Shown: positions 3,937 through 42,641 of the stretch, one piece after another
Position numbering within the stretch: the first letter of the stretch is position 1
How the letters are laid out: each line of letters starts with the position of its first letter
DNA from: a virus
Virus record (IMG/VR): IMGVR_UViG_3300033550_000002
Location: 15,685 to 79,684 of that record
DNA: 64,000 nucleotides
Direction: 5' to 3' (one strand)
Position numbers and translations under genes: made by a program
The notes under the pieces: model-generated
Told to the model about the DNA's origin: nothing
The model's input: only the letters and a program-made list of their open reading frames with translations
Databases searched by the model: none

Positions 3937-4884
3937 TCACGATGTCCCGGTGGCTGCCGGGAGCATGTAGCGCTCTTCCCAGGTACGGAGACGTTCGAAG
4001 TATCGAGGCCCAAGATCCTTGGCTCGGTGGAGTTTTGGGAGGCCAGGTATGCAAAGATGGTAGCATTCCTCGCCATTTCTGGGCACAGGCGTGGACGTGA
4101 AAACGTGCTCCTTGAGCAGCGCTTCCGGGAAGAGGTCCCGGACCCACTCCTGGCCGTGCACTCGGGGCATCAGGTCGCGGTCCTTCTCGCTGCTGACGCC
4201 CAGCCACATCAGGTACTCCTCGCGCGAGCGCACCGAGAGGGTCGGGAGGTCCGGGCCCACAGGGGTGTACTGGACGCCCCAGCCGGGCTCCAGGAGGGCC
4301 GGAGTGGGCACCCCGGTCATCCGGGCCGCCATGGCCTGCGGGACGCCCTTGGAGCGCACGATGTCGGCCGCGAAGGACCGGAAGGCGGAGTCGCCCCGGG
4401 TGGCCGCCTCCAGCCCGAGGTGGATGATCCGCATGTCGCACGATCCGGTCACCCGGGAGGCGAGCATCCCCTCCGGCCGCGTCATCCACTTCGACACGGT
4501 CTTGTGGTGGATGTCGGTCATCTCCTCGAAGAACGAGGAGCTGAACAGCATCAGCGGGCTGAGGAGCGTGACGGCGGCCAGCCGCCTGCGGCGGGTCCAG
4601 TGCCTGCGGTTCACGTAGGCCCACCACGTGAACGACAGGATCTGGCCCCGCTCGACAGGGCTGTACACGTGCAGCAGGTCGACGTCCCTCGGGTTGCCGT
4701 TGTACGGACTCCGGAAGACGGTCTGGTTCGGCCGGACCATGACGCGGTCCACGGCCCGCAGGAGGTGCGGGAAAGAGGACACGGAAGGCAGGAGGGTCCG
4801 GGCCCTCGCGATCCTCTCCTGCGGCGTACCGGAGCGGTCTCCAGGAGGCCGCCCCGGAGGCCGCCCGGTGGGCTGTCGGGGCAC
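3937..4884 (-). CDS. hypothetical, possibly DNA-binding protein
   Basis: 315-aa ORF between primase-helicase and polymerase; HTH-like EMTDIHHKTVSKW. Confidence 0.55.
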   Translation of the reverse strand: MPRQPTGRPPGRPPGDRSGTPQERIARARTLLPSVSSFPHLLRAVDRVMVRPNQTVFRSPYNGNPRDVDLLHVYSPVERGQILSFTWWAYVNRRHWTRRRRLAAVTLLSPLMLFSSSFFEEMTDIHHKTVSKWMTRPEGMLASRVTGSCDMRIIHLGLEAATRGDSAFRSFAADIVRSKGVPQAMAARMTGVPTPALLEPGWGVQYTPVGPDLPTLSVRSREEYLMWLGVSSEKDRDLMPRVHGQEWVRDLFPEALLKEHVFTSTPVPRNGEECYHLCIPGLPKLHRAKDLGPRYFERLRTWEERYMLPAATGTS

Positions 4885-38334: not shown

Positions 38335-38712
38335 TCAGTCGGGCTTGTGCGCTTCGAGAACCGCGATGACGCCTTCCAGGGCCTCGTCGGGGTACCCGCG
38401 CATCGACCCCAGACCGTCGGAGCGAGTCGGCATCAGGCCCAGGTCGAAGATCCGGCCGAGCAGGGCCTCGCGCTTCCTGACGGCCGCGACCTCGGTCTTC
38501 GTGCGGAAGTACCGCGTGTAGCCGTAGTTCTTCTCCGTGTCCACGCGATCGGTCATCGAGAAGGCCGACTCTCGGCCACGCACCTCGATGTAGATGCGGC
38601 GGGTACCGATCCGGGTCACCTCGCAGTTGTCGTACTCACGGCCGTCGTAGACGACGACCTTGCTGCCGGGCCGCAGGACTTCCCCGCCGACCTTGAACTC
38701 TCGCTCCTTCAT
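38335..38712 (-). CDS. hypothetical protein
   Basis: GGAG RBS, upstream -10 TAGAAT. Confidence 0.6.
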   Translation of the reverse strand: MKEREFKVGGEVLRPGSKVVVYDGREYDNCEVTRIGTRRIYIEVRGRESAFSMTDRVDTEKNYGYTRYFRTKTEVAAVRKREALLGRIFDLGLMPTRSDGLGSMRGYPDEALEGVIAVLEAHKPD

Positions 38713-38824
38713 GCACTTCTCCGTTTCCTCAACTAACCCCATTCTAGCGAAAGTTGAGAACGCGGGCAAGGAGGGCACGAGAAGGGCCCCCCACCTCCGG
38801 AGAGGTGAGGGACCCAGGCGGGGC

Positions 38825-40399
38825 TCAGGTGAGCCACGGCCACTTCTCGTCGTACCCGGCCTCCAGCGCGAGCACCTGGGCGAAGACCTGGTCGGTCAGT
38901 CCGCCGAACTCGTACCAGCCCTTCAGGCGGGTGTCGATCACGGTCGAGGCGTACCCGACCGGACTGACGCCGTAGAGCTTCACGCCGTCCGGCACCGGCA
39001 GGCTCCCGACGCGGCACTGCATGTCCGAGATCACGAACACGCGGTCGTGGCCGTCGAGACGGTTGCGGATCGCGCCCGAGATGTTCGTGCCGTGGCCGAC
39101 CTCACCGGTCCGCTGGACGAAGTCGCGGGCCGCCGACAGGACGCCCTGGCCCGGCTTCACGTTGTGCCGGAACTCGCTGTCCGCGAAGCCGAACAGGTCC
39201 ACCCGGCCCTGGTTGCGCTGGGCCAGCGTGACGCCGAAGATCGAGGCGACCTCCGACATCATGACCGTCGACTTCTGCGACATCTTCGTGTAGGTCATCG
39301 ACGCCGAGGTGTCGATGAGCACGAGCGTGCGGCCCGGCAGCTCCGGGACGGACTTCAGCGAGCTGTTGATCGCGTCGTCCAGGGCCTGCTTCCAGCGGTC
39401 GCTCGGGGCCTCGCGGTACGCCGTGTAGAACCGGAACGGGAACTGACGGCTCTTCGCCACCTCGGCCGGGTCGGCCAGCCGGTCGGCCAGCGCGCGCGCC
39501 CGCTTCGGGTCGATACCTGCCTCGTCCATGTTCCGCAGGTTCCGCAGCGCGGCCATGTACGGCAGGTGCGGGGCCATGGCGTCCCAGACCTTCTTCGCGC
39601 CGACGCGCGCCTTCAGGTCCGAGACCGCGTTCTCCCACGTGATGCCCGCATCCGTGAAGGCGGAGCCGTCGGCGAGGGACGCGAGCTTGCGCTGGTCGTC
39701 CAGGCCGTACCAGCGCTTGCGGGCCGCGATCATCGGGACCGTCGAGATGTCGCCGTCGCCGTGGTGCCGCTCGTCGAGCAGGTACTTGAACAGGGCACCC
39801 TGCCAGTCGCCTTCACCGCGCTCGGTGCGCGGCTTCGGGTGGACCAGCTCCAGCACGTCCGCGAAGCGCAGGCCGCGCGCGTCGGAGTCCCACTTCAGCA
39901 CGTTCCGCTCGGTGAAGAGGCGGCGGATCGCCATCCCCAGACCGGCGCGGACCGCGTTCGGGAGCGCCCGGCCGAAGGTGAGCTGCCAGTACGCCAGGAA
40001 CTCGGTGATCTCCTCACCCCGCTGGATCACGGAGTCGATCAGCTCGGCGTTGCCGTCGTGCTGGCCCGCCTTGAGCCGGGCGCTGACCGCGTGCGCCGCC
40101 CCGGTCAGGGAAGCGGTGCGGATGTTCGCGTCCGAGCGCAGCCAGCGCAGCAGGCCGCGCAGCCACTCCCAGTCGCCGACCGCGTGCAGCTCCACGAGGT
40201 TGTTGTAGCGGGCGTCGCGGCTGGTGCCCTTCTCATGGAAGGTGTCCTGGCCGACGAGGTTCACGGCCGCGAGGCTGTACAGCTCGCCGCGCAGGCCGTG
40301 CCCGAAGGCCGGGGCTCCCTGGTGGTTCACCGTCGCGCCCTTGACGACGTCCTTCGGGCGTCCGGTCGCCCGGACACCTGCGTTGTTGAAGCGTGCCAT
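38825..40399 (-). CDS. Ro60/TROVE domain RNA-binding protein (Rsr-like)
   Basis: MARFN, R.DANIRT, LVHPKP, TWE, LPYMAALRNLRNM, SRQFPFRFYTAY, vWA LIDTSASM...ISDMQ. Confidence 0.95.
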   Translation of the reverse strand: MARFNNAGVRATGRPKDVVKGATVNHQGAPAFGHGLRGELYSLAAVNLVGQDTFHEKGTSRDARYNNLVELHAVGDWEWLRGLLRWLRSDANIRTASLTGAAHAVSARLKAGQHDGNAELIDSVIQRGEEITEFLAYWQLTFGRALPNAVRAGLGMAIRRLFTERNVLKWDSDARGLRFADVLELVHPKPRTERGEGDWQGALFKYLLDERHHGDGDISTVPMIAARKRWYGLDDQRKLASLADGSAFTDAGITWENAVSDLKARVGAKKVWDAMAPHLPYMAALRNLRNMDEAGIDPKRARALADRLADPAEVAKSRQFPFRFYTAYREAPSDRWKQALDDAINSSLKSVPELPGRTLVLIDTSASMTYTKMSQKSTVMMSEVASIFGVTLAQRNQGRVDLFGFADSEFRHNVKPGQGVLSAARDFVQRTGEVGHGTNISGAIRNRLDGHDRVFVISDMQCRVGSLPVPDGVKLYGVSPVGYASTVIDTRLKGWYEFGGLTDQVFAQVLALEAGYDEKWPWLT

Positions 40400-40414: not shown

Positions 40415-41176
40415 TCAGCCGATGTTCATGGTTCGCCGGTAGTCGGCGAAGCGGGCCTTGCGGATGACCGATCGGTCGGCGCTCCGGAAGACGATGCCTT
40501 CCGGCGAGCCGTGCCCCTTCTCGTCGAGTGCGACGCGGGTCTGGGGCAGGGTGTTGCTCAGGAACCGGTGGGTCCCGAAGTGGGTCTCGGGCATCTCGTA
40601 GCCCATCACGGTGCACAGGTGCGGCACGCGCGGGATGCCGGTCAGGCGGCTGACGTCGTCGAGCTGTTCGACCGACAGGAAGGTCTGGCCGCCGTTCTCA
40701 CGCCACCGGGAGATCGTTTCCCGGTCCCACTCGAAGGGCTGGGTGCCCTCCGTCAGGACGTCGAACATGCGGTGGCCGCGCGATCCGCTGCCCGTGTACT
40801 GCTTCGCCTGGCCGCCGATCTTCGAGCCGTAGACCTCCAGGTACACCGCGACCACGCCGAGTTCCGGGGACAGCTCCGAGATCTGGCACAGGCTCTCCGC
40901 GACGGGGCGCAGCTCGGTGACGATGTCGTGGCTGACGCCGGTCGACGGGACCACCCGGTCACCCTTCGCGTGCAGCAGCTCCTCGCGGGAGCCGATGAAG
41001 TAGTCACCGCCGGGGAGCAGGACGATGCGGCCGTTCGTGCCGTCGACCTTCTCGTAGCCGAACACCTCTCCGGTGAACGGTGTCACCTTGTCGGTGAGCC
41101 GACCCTTCTCGCCGAGGACGTGGTAGGTCTCGATCGATGGGTACTTCGTGACGGAGTTCAGGATTTCCAGGTTCAC
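40415..41176 (-). CDS. ATP-dependent RNA ligase (Rnl2-like nucleotidyltransferase)
   Basis: KYPSI, motif I EKVDGTN, III EVYG, IIIa FDV, IV EGIVFR, V RKAR..DY. Confidence 0.8.
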   Translation of the reverse strand: MNLEILNSVTKYPSIETYHVLGEKGRLTDKVTPFTGEVFGYEKVDGTNGRIVLLPGGDYFIGSREELLHAKGDRVVPSTGVSHDIVTELRPVAESLCQISELSPELGVVAVYLEVYGSKIGGQAKQYTGSGSRGHRMFDVLTEGTQPFEWDRETISRWRENGGQTFLSVEQLDDVSRLTGIPRVPHLCTVMGYEMPETHFGTHRFLSNTLPQTRVALDEKGHGSPEGIVFRSADRSVIRKARFADYRRTMNIG

Positions 41177-41195
41177 GGTTCTCTCCTTTTCCGGG

Positions 41196-41225
41196 AAAAC
41201 AAAAACCCCCTCCGACTGGAGGGGG
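41196..41225 (-). terminator. intrinsic terminator after Y RNA cluster
   Basis: - strand CCCCCTCC-AGTC-GGAGGGGG-TTTTTGTTTT. Confidence 0.8.
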
Positions 41226-41232
41226 CGCGATA

Positions 41233-41394
41233 TGCACAGACGTACCGGCCGGTTCACCAGAGCAACTGCGGTTTTTGGAGACCATTGCTCTACCAATTGA
41301 GCTACCCAGCTTTTCAAGGCCGGGACTGGAATTGAACCAGCAACCCACGGTTTGAAGTAACCGCCGTCTTCGCACCGGCCGGTGCGTCCGTGCA
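41233..41394 (-). ncRNA. Y RNA (YrlA-type) with permuted tRNA domain
   Basis: about 21-bp terminal stem with GGUGCGA/GGUGAACC Ro-site-like helix; T arm GCUGG-UUCAAUU-CCAGU precedes D arm GCUC-AAUUGGUA-GAGC. Confidence 0.85.
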
Positions 41395-41397
41395 CAT

Positions 41398-41567
41398 CAC
41401 AGGAATCCTGGAGCCGCCTGGTTCACCGAGATCGCGACGGGGAACGTTGCGCGTGCTGCCAATTACACTACCGGGCTTTCGCCTTCGCCTGGACTTGAAC
41501 CGGACTACGCCCTCCTGAAGGGGAAGTATCCGTCACTGTCGCACCAGACGACACCAGGATTCCTGTG
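41398..41567 (-). ncRNA. Y RNA (YrlA-type) with permuted tRNA domain
   Basis: CACAGGAAUCCUGG/CCAGGAUUCCUGUG stem, GGUGCGA/GGUGAACC, T loop GGUUCAAGUCC before D arm GUGUAAUUGGCAGCAC. Confidence 0.8.
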
Positions 41568-41570
41568 AAT

Positions 41571-41650
41571 TGCGCCCCCCGGTTCACCGGAACGACTGCG
41601 GAGAGTTTCATTACCAGTGAAGTATCCGCTGTCTTCGCACCGGGGGTGCA
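41571..41650 (-). ncRNA. minimal Y RNA lacking tRNA domain
   Basis: same GGUGCGAAGAC.GCGG.UACUUC and CCGCAGU.G.UC.GGUGAACC motifs, closed by a short loop. Confidence 0.75.
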
Positions 41651-41656
41651 GGAAAA

Positions 41657-41686
41657 ACATTACGGGATGCTGCGACGAGGTCGCAA
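41657..41686 (-). promoter_or_regulatory. sigma70/HrdB-type promoter for Y RNA cluster
   Basis: TTGCGA-18 nt-TAATGT, 6 nt before first Y RNA. Confidence 0.65.
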
Positions 41687-41691
41687 CTCCT

Positions 41692-42165
41692 TTACGCGTA
41701 GACCGCGCAGAGCAGCCAGGAGGCCGTCGTCTGCTGCGGGGTCATCTCCAGCCGCTCCAGCGCCCGGCTCAGCCTGCCCTCCGCGAGGAGGTACTGCGCC
41801 GGGGTGAACGTGAGCGGGTCGATGGCCTGGGGAACGGTGCCGGAAGCCTTGAAGGTCATGCCGGAGGCGACCAGGGAGATGTGCGTGTACTCCAGGTGCC
41901 CGGTCCAGCAGATGTCGATGCCGAGGTGCTTCGCCATGAGCGCGGACAGCGAGTACTCGGCGGAGTCGATCTCCTCCTGGCTCACGTTGCCCGCGCGCAG
42001 GAGCCGCCTGCGCATCTCGTTCTCGTAGTCCGACTCGATGTCGGCCATCCAGTGGCCGTCGAGAAGGCTGCCGTACTCGTCGACCTCGTCGACCTTCCAG
42101 GAGCCCTCGTCGGGACAGCCCAGGTAGAACCCGTACGCGAGGCGCGCACTCGACCCCATCGGCAT
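41692..42165 (-). CDS. hypothetical protein
   Basis: 157-aa ORF, GAGGGG RBS. Confidence 0.6.
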   Translation of the reverse strand: MPMGSSARLAYGFYLGCPDEGSWKVDEVDEYGSLLDGHWMADIESDYENEMRRRLLRAGNVSQEEIDSAEYSLSALMAKHLGIDICWTGHLEYTHISLVASGMTFKASGTVPQAIDPLTFTPAQYLLAEGRLSRALERLEMTPQQTTASWLLCAVYA

Positions 42166-42570: not shown

Positions 42571-42641
42571 AACCTGTGACGGGATTTGAACCCGCGCCGC
42601 CGACACCCTCACGTCGGAGTGCTGCGCTACACCACACAGGC
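42571..42641 (-). ncRNA. tRNA-like RNA with 8-nt anticodon loop
   Basis: acceptor GCCUGUG/CACAGGU, CCGAC-GUGAGGGU-GUCGG, T arm GCGGG-UUCAAAU-CCCGU; D loop lacks GG. Confidence 0.65.

What the first reader, a model, noticed from the sequence alone, without database searches (positions are those of the whole stretch)
41233..41650. Tandem array of three modular Y RNAs with a constant Ro-binding scaffold and different effector domains
Three hairpin-closed units lie only 3 nt apart (162, 170 and 80 nt). On the - strand all share GGUGCGA(A/C)..., ...GG(U/A)UACUUC and ...GGUGAACC, but carry different inserts: two different permuted tRNA domains and one short loop. They have their own promoter and a strong terminator before the protein genes, implying RNA in excess over Ro60 (inference). 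The layout resembles a programmable adaptor set: one protein, several RNA cargoes.
Basis: partly seen in the sequence, partly recalled or inferred. Interest (0 to 1): 0.8.

Follow-up and report, generated by a model that had tools for sequence, protein, structure and literature searches.

The report
Three Y RNA genes beside phage Ro60
A soil Streptomyces-type phage carries three back-to-back genes for small "Y RNAs", the known partner RNAs of the Ro60 ring protein encoded just downstream; the find is real but belongs to an already described kind.

Summary
On the minus strand, 41650-41231, three hairpin-closed units (80, about 172 and about 166 nt) abut each other. Each carries GGUGCGA(A/C)-N5-CGG(A/U)UACUUC and GGUGAACC: 3 matches to the 23-nt motif against 0 in shuffles.

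The units lie between a conserved promoter-like site and a strong terminator, upstream of an RNA ligase and a Ro60/TROVE gene.

Covariance models built only from bacterial, metagenome and other viral contig sequences find exactly these three units as the best hits in 64 kb: 94, 48.6 and 50.4 bits. Stems covary across eight related phage loci.

Unit 3 is a YrlA-type circularly permuted tRNA-Trp mimic. Unit 2 is a degenerate T-arm/D-arm mimic. Unit 1 is a short hairpin Y RNA.

The same scaffold occurs next to Ro60 in many Actinobacteria and actinophages, in arrays of 2-6 units.

Modular Y RNAs, several per species, made from one precursor and present in phages, are published (Chen 2014; Wang 2018; phiLo 2025). 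This scan has also noted similar arrays on other DNA.

Verdict: new member of a known kind. Three points may be new. The relatives' arrays are unannotated or mis-annotated as tRNA. The RNA ligase is an ATP-type one. Two scaffold variants travel with two Ro60 types.

No expression or binding data exist.

The parts
41657..41686 (-). Promoter-like site: TTGCGA (41686-41681), 18-nt spacer, TAATGT (41662-41657). U1 starts 6 nt downstream.
   Evidence: The block is conserved in eight related phage loci while the flanks diverge. The relaxed pattern finds 4 sites against 0.73 expected. The strict scan did not call it. Function is inferred.
41571..41650 (-). U1: short Y RNA. It has an outer stem, GGUGCGAAG, an 8-bp second stem, AUACUUC, and a small apical hairpin (UUCA-CUGGUAA-UGAA).
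   Evidence: R1 (49 independent short units) scores 50.4 bits, E 5e-10, full length. R2 scores 36.4 bits. Covariation: 6 of 23 pairs compensatory, and the covariation score is reached by 0 of 500 shuffles.
41397..41568 (-). U2: Y RNA with a roughly 27-bp outer stem and a degenerate tRNA-like insert. The insert has a T arm, a GGC-GAAA-GCC mini-hairpin and a D arm (GUGU...GCAC), about 41510-41451.
   Evidence: R2 scores 48.6 bits, E 5e-10, model positions 1-142. 13 of 55 pairs are compensatory among three type-A loci. No tRNA call after re-circularising.
41231..41396 (-). U3: YrlA-type Y RNA. The outer stem is about 24 bp. The tRNA-like module, 41351-41274, is a permuted tRNA-Trp: anticodon-stem 3' strand, V loop, T arm, closed acceptor hairpin, D arm, anticodon-stem 5' strand, then the CUCCAAA loop remnant.
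   Evidence: Rfam YrlA RF02553 scores 40.8 bits, E 5e-7, below the gathering score of 69. R2 scores 94 bits, E 4.5e-21. 25 of 61 pairs are compensatory, reached by 0 of 500 shuffles. ARAGORN calls tRNA-Trp(cca) on re-joined constructs. BLAST hits phage tRNA-Trp genes.
41196..41226 (-). Intrinsic terminator: a 9-bp G+C stem at 41226-41205, then UUUUUGUUUU. The ligase start codon follows 20 nt after the U tract.
   Evidence: Called by the scan. A stem plus U tract sits at the same place in all relatives, with different stem sequence in the type-B loci.
40415..41176 (-). RNA ligase gene, 253 aa, with a KxDG nucleotidyl-transferase motif.
   Evidence: Pfam PF09414, E 1e-10. PHROG 548 'RNA ligase'. 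Present at the same position in JustBecause and L012 (46% identity), absent in Satis, Frankenweenie and L230.
38825..40399 (-). Ro60 ortholog (TROVE + vWA), 524 aa: the presumed protein partner of the three RNAs.
   Evidence: Pfam TROVE, E 5e-17, plus VWA_2. PHROG 850, E 4.5e-40. PDB 9L5Y/9KOP, Thermus phage phiLo Ro60, E 1.2e-25.

Best explanation
The stretch is a three-gene Y RNA operon of a Streptomyces-type phage.

Transcription (inferred). One transcript starts at about 41651, just downstream of the conserved TTGCGA-N18-TAATGT site. It runs through U1, U2 and U3 and mostly stops at the terminator 41226-41205. No room for another promoter exists between the terminator and the ligase start, so read-through would supply the RNA ligase and Ro60 mRNA.

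Processing (inferred). The precursor is cut at the 0-3-nt linkers between the long closing helices into three RNAs. This is by analogy with M. smegmatis YrlA/YrlB and D. radiodurans Yrn2-tRNA-Yrn1, which are made from one precursor (PMC4201824). The nuclease is unknown; RNase III or RNase E/J are guesses.

Binding (inferred from family membership). Each RNA binds the phage Ro60 through the shared scaffold. The scaffold comprises the closing helix, the 5' strand GGUGCGA(A/C), which matches 6 of 7 bases of the vertebrate Ro60 contact GGUCCGA, and the 3' strand UGAACC.

Modules (fold supported, partners unknown). Each RNA presents a different module: a small hairpin (U1), a degenerate T/D-arm tRNA mimic (U2), and a near-complete permuted tRNA-Trp mimic (U3). 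By analogy with known Y RNAs, the modules gate the Ro60 ring and tether it to other factors such as host PNPase or tRNA-recognising enzymes.

Shown here: the anatomy, its conservation, the covariation, membership of the family, and linkage to Ro60.
For: (1) The motif triad occurs three times against 0 expected.

(2) The units are on the same strand as, and about 830 nt upstream of, a Ro60 ortholog.

(3) Models built without the window give U1 50.4 bits (R1). R2 gives U3 94 bits, U2 48.6 bits and U1 36.4 bits. These are the top three hits in the 64-kb window and in the whole 79.7-kb contig.

(4) Rfam YrlA hits U3 at E 5e-7.

(5) Covariation. U3: 25 of 61 pairs compensatory, 97% of cells paired against 33-41% when partners are slid. 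U1: 6 of 23. U2: 13 of 55 among 3 sequences.

(6) The same three-unit order, promoter block and terminator are found in Satis, L230, JustBecause, Frankenweenie and three IMG/VR contigs (L009, L011, L012). L010 is cut off after unit 2.

(7) The 23-nt motif recurs in more than 120 genome loci (mostly Actinobacteria), more than 119 metagenome loci and 24 viral loci. A Ro60 homolog lies in the same locus in 66 of 120, 46 of 119 and 18 of 23 of the newly fetched viral loci.

(8) Within each genome all units share one scaffold variant, while the neighbouring stem sequences differ. The window has GGUGAACC three times. Satis and L230 have GGUUAACC three times. Type-B phages have GGAGCGU/UGUUGGCC three times. 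pSt2308 and Alone3 have CGAUGCG/UUUCUAG five times.

(9) All 8 natural variants inside the units that were seen in other metagenomes fall in loops or in the conserved internal loop (41430), or keep pairing (mapped by hand).
Against: - No RNA-level evidence: discrete RNAs, their ends and their abundance are unknown.
- No binding data.
- U3 is below Rfam's gathering score (40.8 against 69). U1 and U2 get no Rfam hit.
- The published GNCGAAN0-1G motif is matched only approximately: UGCGAAG in U1 and U3, UGCGACAG in U2.
- The strict promoter scan found nothing.
- The loci used to train R1 and R2 were fetched with a pattern taken from the window's 5' motif. That part of the score, roughly a quarter of the model, is circular.
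- Contigs L155 and L261 have the GGUGAACC variant with a Ro60 only 32-33% identical to the window's. Scaffold variant and Ro60 similarity are therefore not tightly coupled outside this phage group.
Confidence: 0.85

Rival explanations
1. The stretch is a cis-acting structured leader of the ligase-Ro60 mRNA. Ro60 would bind its own 5' leader and set terminator read-through. The three elements would then not accumulate as separate RNAs.
For: The array, terminator, ribosome-binding site and start codon are contiguous, with no room for a second promoter. The arrangement is conserved in all relatives.
Against: In Atuin, R2-matching units lie both upstream and downstream of Ro60. Published Y RNAs upstream of rsr in M. 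smegmatis are processed, stable, Rsr-bound RNAs (PMC4201824). Three different conserved modules are not needed for an attenuator.
Confidence: 0.07
2. The units are tRNA-derived RNAs that act without Ro60. They could be decayed tRNA genes of the neighbouring tRNA cluster, or free tRNA decoys or substrates for the adjacent RNA ligase.
For: tRNA genes lie 900-1600 nt upstream. U3 resembles tRNA-Trp. GenBank annotators called parts of the homologous units tRNA.
Against: The order of arms is permuted and the acceptor stem is closed, so no tRNA can be made. U1 has no tRNA part yet shares the scaffold. The scaffold and closing helices covary and are conserved. The same scaffold tracks Ro60 in the fetched loci, whereas the ligase is found in only one of the 262 fetched bacterial, metagenome and viral loci.
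Confidence: 0.05
3. The units are chance hairpins or a repeat family unrelated to any RNA function.
For: High-G+C DNA folds well in general.
Against: The motif occurs 3 times against 0.00 expected. The fold z-score is -7.6. Compensatory changes exceed every shuffle and every slid control. Independent models give E values of 5e-10 to 4.5e-21.
Confidence: 0.01

Closest known systems
YrlA (Rfam RF02553): bacterial and phage Y RNA with a tRNA-like effector module (Chen et al. 2014, PMC4201824; Wang et al. 2018, bioRxiv 10.1101/312249)
   Same: U3, and more loosely U2, share these features: next to Ro60 on the same strand; a long stem formed by the 5' and 3' ends, with a GGUCCGA-like 5'-strand motif; a module ordered T arm, closed acceptor-like hairpin, D arm.
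   Different: The Rfam score is below the curated threshold. The closing helices are much longer (about 24-27 bp). The motif is UGCGA(A/C) rather than GNCGAA. U3 keeps a recognisable tRNA-Trp anticodon-loop remnant. U2 has only a 3-5-bp acceptor substitute.
[quoted passage not shown]
   Same: U1 is a second, small Y RNA that is essentially one long hairpin. It is encoded beside a tRNA-like Y RNA and, by inference, made from the same precursor.
   Different: The U1 loop (CUGGUAA) is not pyrimidine-rich and is not conserved among relatives. Homology to the named RNAs was not tested because their sequences were not at hand. Membership was shown only for the actinobacterial short class collected here (R1).
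Thermus phage phiLo Ro60 with Yrl1 and Yrl2 (PMC12135203; PDB 9KOP, 9L5Y)
   Same: A phage-encoded Ro60 with more than one Y-like RNA gene directly upstream. The Ro60 proteins are homologous (E 1e-25).
   Different: Three units instead of two. tRNA-like modules, which the paper does not mention for Yrl1 and Yrl2 (0 occurrences). An RNA ligase gene lies between the RNAs and Ro60. Nothing has been tested biochemically here.
rsr-yrlBA-rtcBA RNA repair operon of Salmonella (Hughes et al. 2020, PMC7790460)
   Same: Ro60, Y RNAs and an RNA ligase are encoded together. A role in tRNA damage and repair has been proposed, including YrlA as a competitor of an anticodon nuclease.
   Different: The ligase here is an ATP-type PF09414 enzyme, not RtcB. 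No RtcA or RtcR is present. The gene order differs (RNAs first). The setting is a phage.

Membership tests
Bacterial/phage Y RNA (Ro60 partner RNA) | Encoded within about 4 kb of a Ro60/TROVE ortholog, on the same strand | tested here: met
   The array ends at 41231 and Ro60 starts at 40399, both on the - strand.
Bacterial/phage Y RNA (Ro60 partner RNA) | A long stem formed by the 5' and 3' ends, holding a conserved GGUCCGA-like / GNCGAAN0-1G 5'-strand motif | tested here: inconclusive
   The stems are present and covary. The motif is GGUGCGA(A/C), which matches 6 of 7 bases of GGUCCGA but is one base off GNCGAA.
Bacterial/phage Y RNA (Ro60 partner RNA) | Bound and stabilised by Ro60 | not testable with these tools
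   Needs RIP, EMSA or a Ro60 deletion. Indirect hint only: one scaffold variant per genome in all units.
YrlA (Rfam RF02553) | Score at or above Rfam's gathering threshold (69 bits) | tested here: not met
   U3 scores 40.8 bits (E 5e-7 in the 2.3-kb search). U1 and U2 have no hit at E <= 10.
YrlA (Rfam RF02553) | tRNA-like module with T arm, closed acceptor-like stem and D arm in that order | tested here: met
   U3: the Rfam alignment, R2 across the full model, and ARAGORN tRNA-Trp calls on re-joined constructs. U2: T and D arms align to R2 but the acceptor stem does not, and ARAGORN makes no call.
Actinobacterial Ro60-linked Y RNA group collected here (models R1, R2) | Full-length match to covariance models trained on sequences that exclude the window | tested here: met
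   U1 scores 50.4 bits with R1. U3 scores 94 bits and U2 48.6 bits with R2. Caveat: the training loci were fetched with the window's own 23-nt 5' motif.
Canonical tRNA | Cloverleaf with free acceptor ends, detected by ARAGORN or by Rfam tRNA at 29 bits or more | tested here: not met
   ARAGORN finds no tRNA in 41231-41650. The best Rfam tRNA score there is 16.6 bits.

The most novel reading that the evidence does not exclude
The locus is a phage counter-defence module against host enzymes that cut tRNA. In this reading the Ro60-held tRNA mimics (U2, U3) act as decoys or sensors for anticodon nucleases, and the ligase reseals cut tRNAs or cut Y RNAs. The two scaffold/Ro60 variants seen among sister phages would keep phage particles distinct from the host's own Ro60/Y RNA particles. 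Competition of YrlA with an anticodon nuclease has been suggested for Salmonella (PMC7790460) but has never been tested in a phage.
Probability: 0.15. Interest if true: 0.75.

Novelty: new member of a known kind. Interest (0 to 1): 0.35.

Why it matters
Y RNAs, their two-module design, their tRNA mimicry and their presence in phages are all published, so the finding does not open a new category. Its value is practical.

- Annotation. A whole group of large Streptomyces phages, and other actinophages with 4-5 units, carry Y RNA operons. In GenBank these are left blank or mislabelled as tRNA-Pro, tRNA-Cys, tRNA-Arg or tRNA-Ser.
- A test system. Cultured relatives growing on S. lividans give a non-essential system in which to ask what the tRNA-like modules bind. 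That question has been open since 2014.
- A ready experiment. Sister phages carry two natural scaffold/Ro60 variants in an otherwise syntenic locus, which sets up a swap experiment on Ro60-Y RNA recognition.
- A parallel. An ATP-type RNA ligase sits where bacteria have RtcB, which strengthens the link between Ro60 particles and RNA repair.

Tried and rejected
- Rfam at gathering thresholds found only the two tRNAs.
- The search for related loci with the Ro60 protein in IMG/VR returned nothing. Relatives were reached through DNA patterns instead.
- A loose T-loop pattern scan gave mostly unrelated loci and was not used.
- A MAFFT alignment of U2 across both scaffold types misaligned the outer stems. 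It was replaced by type-specific alignments.
- R1 aligned only the 5' halves of U2 and U3, so R2 was built.
- Re-circularising U2 gave no ARAGORN tRNA call.
- The strict promoter scan found nothing.
- The PDB sequence search with the ligase found nothing.
- The 2020 Annual Review on bacterial Ro60 is not held. Part of the prior literature, and the supplementary tables of Chen 2014, therefore could not be checked for arrays of three or more.
- Sequencing runs: no RNA holder is listed. Only contigs could be laid, so they show variants but no transcript ends.
- Complex prediction and protein structure prediction were not used, because no protein-protein claim is made.

Full report
WHAT IS THERE

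The window is part of a 79.7-kb IMG/VR viral contig, about 42% complete. It is 65-70% G+C. Its relatives are the roughly 186-200-kb Streptomyces phages Satis, Kradal, Quantum, EhyElimayoE, JustBecause, Kela and Frankenweenie.

On the minus strand the order is as follows:
- an FtsK-like gene
- tRNA-Ile
- an odd tRNA
- a 157-aa ORF ending at 41692
- the stretch in question
- a terminator
- an RNA ligase (41176-40415, PF09414)
- a Ro60 ortholog (40399-38825, TROVE + vWA)
- a ProQ-C-like protein

The Ro60 protein matches the solved Ro60 of Thermus phage phiLo at E 1.2e-25.

THE OBSERVATION

Reading the minus strand gives three units:
- U1, 41650-41571
- U2, 41568-41397
- U3, 41396-41231

They are 0-3 nt apart, and each is closed by a helix between its two ends. 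All three carry GGUGCGA(A/C)-N5-CGG(A/U)UACUUC near the 5' end. That is 3 matches in 64 kb against 0.00 in shuffles. All three carry GGUGAACC near the 3' end.

COMMON ARCHITECTURE

The architecture was derived from 49 short and 60 long independent relatives. From outside to inside it is:
- an outer helix
- an internal loop with conserved strands, 5' UGCGA(A/C) and 3' UGA(A/U/C)(C)UC; the window's version is UGAACC
- a second helix of 7-9 bp that covaries strongly
- the (A/U)UACUUC motif, present in every unit examined
- a variable module

THE THREE MODULES

U3 has this order: anticodon-stem 3' strand, V loop, T arm, a closed acceptor-like hairpin, D arm, anticodon-stem 5' strand, and then CUCCAAA. 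That is a circularly permuted tRNA-Trp.
- Rfam YrlA aligns to it at 40.8 bits, E 5e-7, below the gathering score of 69.
- BLAST finds phage tRNA-Trp genes.
- When the module is re-joined head to tail, ARAGORN calls a tRNA across the junction in 463 constructs. The calls are mostly CCA or CCAA anticodon loops, with 58 exact tRNA-Trp(cca) calls.

U2 has a T arm, a GGC-GAAA-GCC mini-hairpin and a D arm. No re-joined construct gave a tRNA call, so it is a degenerate mimic.

U1 has only a 4-bp hairpin. Its loop sequence differs in every relative.

MEMBERSHIP TESTED WITHOUT THE WINDOW

I fetched loci holding the 23-nt 5' motif from three collections:
- genomes: more than 120 loci, mostly Streptomyces, Kitasatospora and other Actinobacteria
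- metagenomes: more than 119 loci
- IMG/VR: 24 loci

A Ro60 homolog lies in the same short locus in 66 of 120, 46 of 119 and 18 of 23 newly fetched viral loci. By chance one would expect about 70 motif matches in 596 Gb. The excess itself therefore cannot be read from a capped list. The Ro60 linkage and the multi-copy loci are the evidence.

The 274 distinct units fall into four groups:
- short: 79
- T arm only: 92
- permuted T-then-D: 94
- a few in the ordinary D-then-T order

Arrays of 2-6 units are common, and 'short | T | YrlA-type' is a typical order.

Model R1, built from 49 short units, hits U1 at 50.4 bits, E 5e-10. Model R2, built from 60 YrlA-type units, hits U3 at 94 bits (E 4.5e-21), U2 at 48.6 bits (E 5e-10) and U1 at 36.4 bits. 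These are the top three hits in the window and in the whole contig. One caveat applies: the 5' motif part of these scores is circular. The tRNA-like core, the second helix and the 3' strand are not.

CONSERVATION AND COVARIATION IN THE PHAGE GROUP

Six further loci have the same three units in the same order, with the same promoter-like block and a terminator: Satis (L001), metagenome contig L230 (Ro60 61% identical), JustBecause (L003), Frankenweenie (L004) and the IMG/VR contigs L009, L011 and L012. A further IMG/VR locus, L010, is cut off after unit 2.

| Unit | Compensatory pairs | Controls |
|---|---|---|
| U3 | 25 of 61 | 97% of cells paired against 33-41% when partners are slid; 0 of 500 shuffles reach the observed values |
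| U1 | 6 of 23 | covariation score 0 of 500 shuffles; compensatory-pair count 1 of 500 |
| U2 | 13 of 55 | three type-A sequences only |

Near-identical copies in soil, plant and groundwater metagenomes differ at eight places inside the units (seven substitutions and one deletion). I mapped these by hand:
- 41333 and 41496 are the R57 position of the two T loops.
- 41461 is in a D loop.
- 41614 is in the U1 loop.
- 41560 changes A-U to G-U.
- 41232 changes G-U to G-C.
- 41430 is in the 3' strand (GAUCUCGG) of the scaffold's internal loop of U2, not in a predicted pair.
None of them breaks a predicted pair.

ONE SCAFFOLD VARIANT PER GENOME

| Genome | Scaffold variant | Units |
|---|---|---|
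| Window | GGUGCGA / GGUGAACC | 3 |
| Satis, L230 | GGUGCGA / GGUUAACC | 3 |
| JustBecause, Frankenweenie, L009-L012 | GGAGCGU / (U/A)GUUGGCC | 3 |
| pSt2308, Alone3 | CGAUGCG / UUU(N)CUAG | 5 |

The helices that flank the motifs are unrelated in sequence between units of one genome. Gene conversion is therefore an unlikely cause. A shared trans-acting partner is the simplest reading (inference).

In the phage group the variant travels with the Ro60 type. The window's Ro60 is 62% identical to that of type-A phages and 34% identical to that of type-B phages. Most neighbouring proteins are about equally distant from both groups: ProQ-C 41% against 43%, SNF2 62% against 61%, ORF 37945 43% against 46%; FtsK is an exception at 74% against 42-53%.

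Outside the group the coupling is loose. L155 and L261 have GGUGAACC with a Ro60 only 32-33% identical.

TRANSCRIPTION

TTGCGA-N18-TAATGT (41686-41657) is conserved in all relatives. It fits a relaxed -35/-10 pattern that occurs 4 times in the window against 0.73 expected. The strict scan does not call it.

The terminator is strong. The ligase start codon follows 20 nt after its U tract. In Satis, L230 and Frankenweenie it is the Ro60 start codon that follows. The protein genes therefore probably depend on read-through. That would give more RNA than protein, but this is inference. No RNA data exist.

COMPARISON WITH WHAT IS KNOWN

Chen et al. 2014 (PMC4201824) described:
- YrlA RNAs next to Ro60 in 254 bacteria and 22 phages
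- at least two Y RNAs per studied species
- one Y RNA with a tRNA-like module and one long-hairpin type
- a YrlB with a T arm
- production from a single precursor

Wang et al. 2018 (bioRxiv 10.1101/312249) state that Y RNAs are modular, with a Ro60-binding module and an effector-binding module. The phiLo paper (PMC12135203) shows two Y-like RNAs upstream of a phage Ro60. Hughes et al. 2020 (PMC7790460) describe Ro60, Y RNAs and an RNA ligase in one operon, and suggest that YrlA may compete with an anticodon nuclease.

Earlier notes of this scan report similar arrays on other DNA.

I did not find the following described in the papers held:
- the three-unit operon of this phage group
- the 4-5-unit arrays of VanLee, pSt2308, Alone3 and Atuin
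- their mis-annotation as tRNA genes
- the ATP-type ligase in place of RtcB
- the paired scaffold/Ro60 variants

VERDICT

The stretch is a real three-gene Y RNA operon: a new member of a known kind. Confidence that these are Ro60 partner RNAs is 0.85. Their partners and their role in infection remain open.

Noticed in passing
L004:2745-2835; L003:1835-1905; L005:2204-2275; L008:2274-2347: GenBank tRNA features overlap strong R2 Y-RNA hits and look like mis-annotated Y RNA parts. The features are Frankenweenie tRNA-Pro (91 nt), JustBecause tRNA-Cys, VanLee tRNA-Arg and Alone3 tRNA-Ser.
   Followed up: partly
L005:1900-2440; L006:1800-2420; L008:1790-2420; L007:1940-2020 and 4398-4831: Other actinophages carry larger Y RNA arrays beside Ro60. 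VanLee has 4 units, pSt2308 and Alone3 have 5, and Atuin has at least 4, some of them downstream of Ro60 and interleaved with tRNA genes. Each phage has its own scaffold variant, but all keep UACUUC.
   Followed up: partly
L148:2574-2700; L150:4427-4560; L142:2382-2510: A few viral contigs have units in which a tRNA-like insert in the ordinary D-then-anticodon-then-T order sits inside the same Y scaffold, instead of the permuted order.
   Followed up: no
all units, e.g. window 41625-41619, 41529-41523, 41360-41354 (- strand): (A/U)UACUUC, at the junction of the second helix and the module, is the most constant element. It is kept even where the 5' and 3' scaffold motifs differ: type-B phages, pSt2308, VanLee and Atuin, all of which were found through Ro60 and not through the pattern. 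Its role is unexplained.
   Followed up: no
window 42571-42641 (- strand): A tRNA-like gene to which ARAGORN assigns a four-base anticodon (gagg). Rfam tRNA scores 43.9 bits. Satis annotates the homolog as tRNA-His.
   Followed up: no
window 41686-41666 and 53294-53273 (- strand): Two promoter-like sites share an inverted repeat that overlaps the -35 element: TTGCGA-N5/6-TCGCA. This may be an operator or a phage-specific promoter element. The repeat is also kept in the relatives' array promoters.
   Followed up: no
window 40415-41176 (- strand): The RNA ligase gene is present or absent at exactly one position, between the terminator and Ro60, among sister phages. It is present in the window, JustBecause and L012, and absent in Satis, L230 and Frankenweenie.
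   Followed up: partly
window 38335-38778 (- strand): A protein with a ProQ C-terminal-like domain (PF24203, E 3e-13) directly follows Ro60. It is kept in all relatives at 33-43% identity and is a possible further RNA-binding partner.
   Followed up: no
window 41150-41720: Near-identical DNA is held by soil, plant, groundwater and invertebrate-gut metagenome runs from 10 studies, so this phage lineage is widespread.
   Followed up: partly
L286:5146-5810: Planomonospora sp. has five tandem units of the same scaffold directly upstream of its chromosomal Ro60: one short, two with T plus GGUGUAA-type D arm, one T-only and one YrlA-type. The phage array thus mirrors host-type arrays.
   Followed up: no
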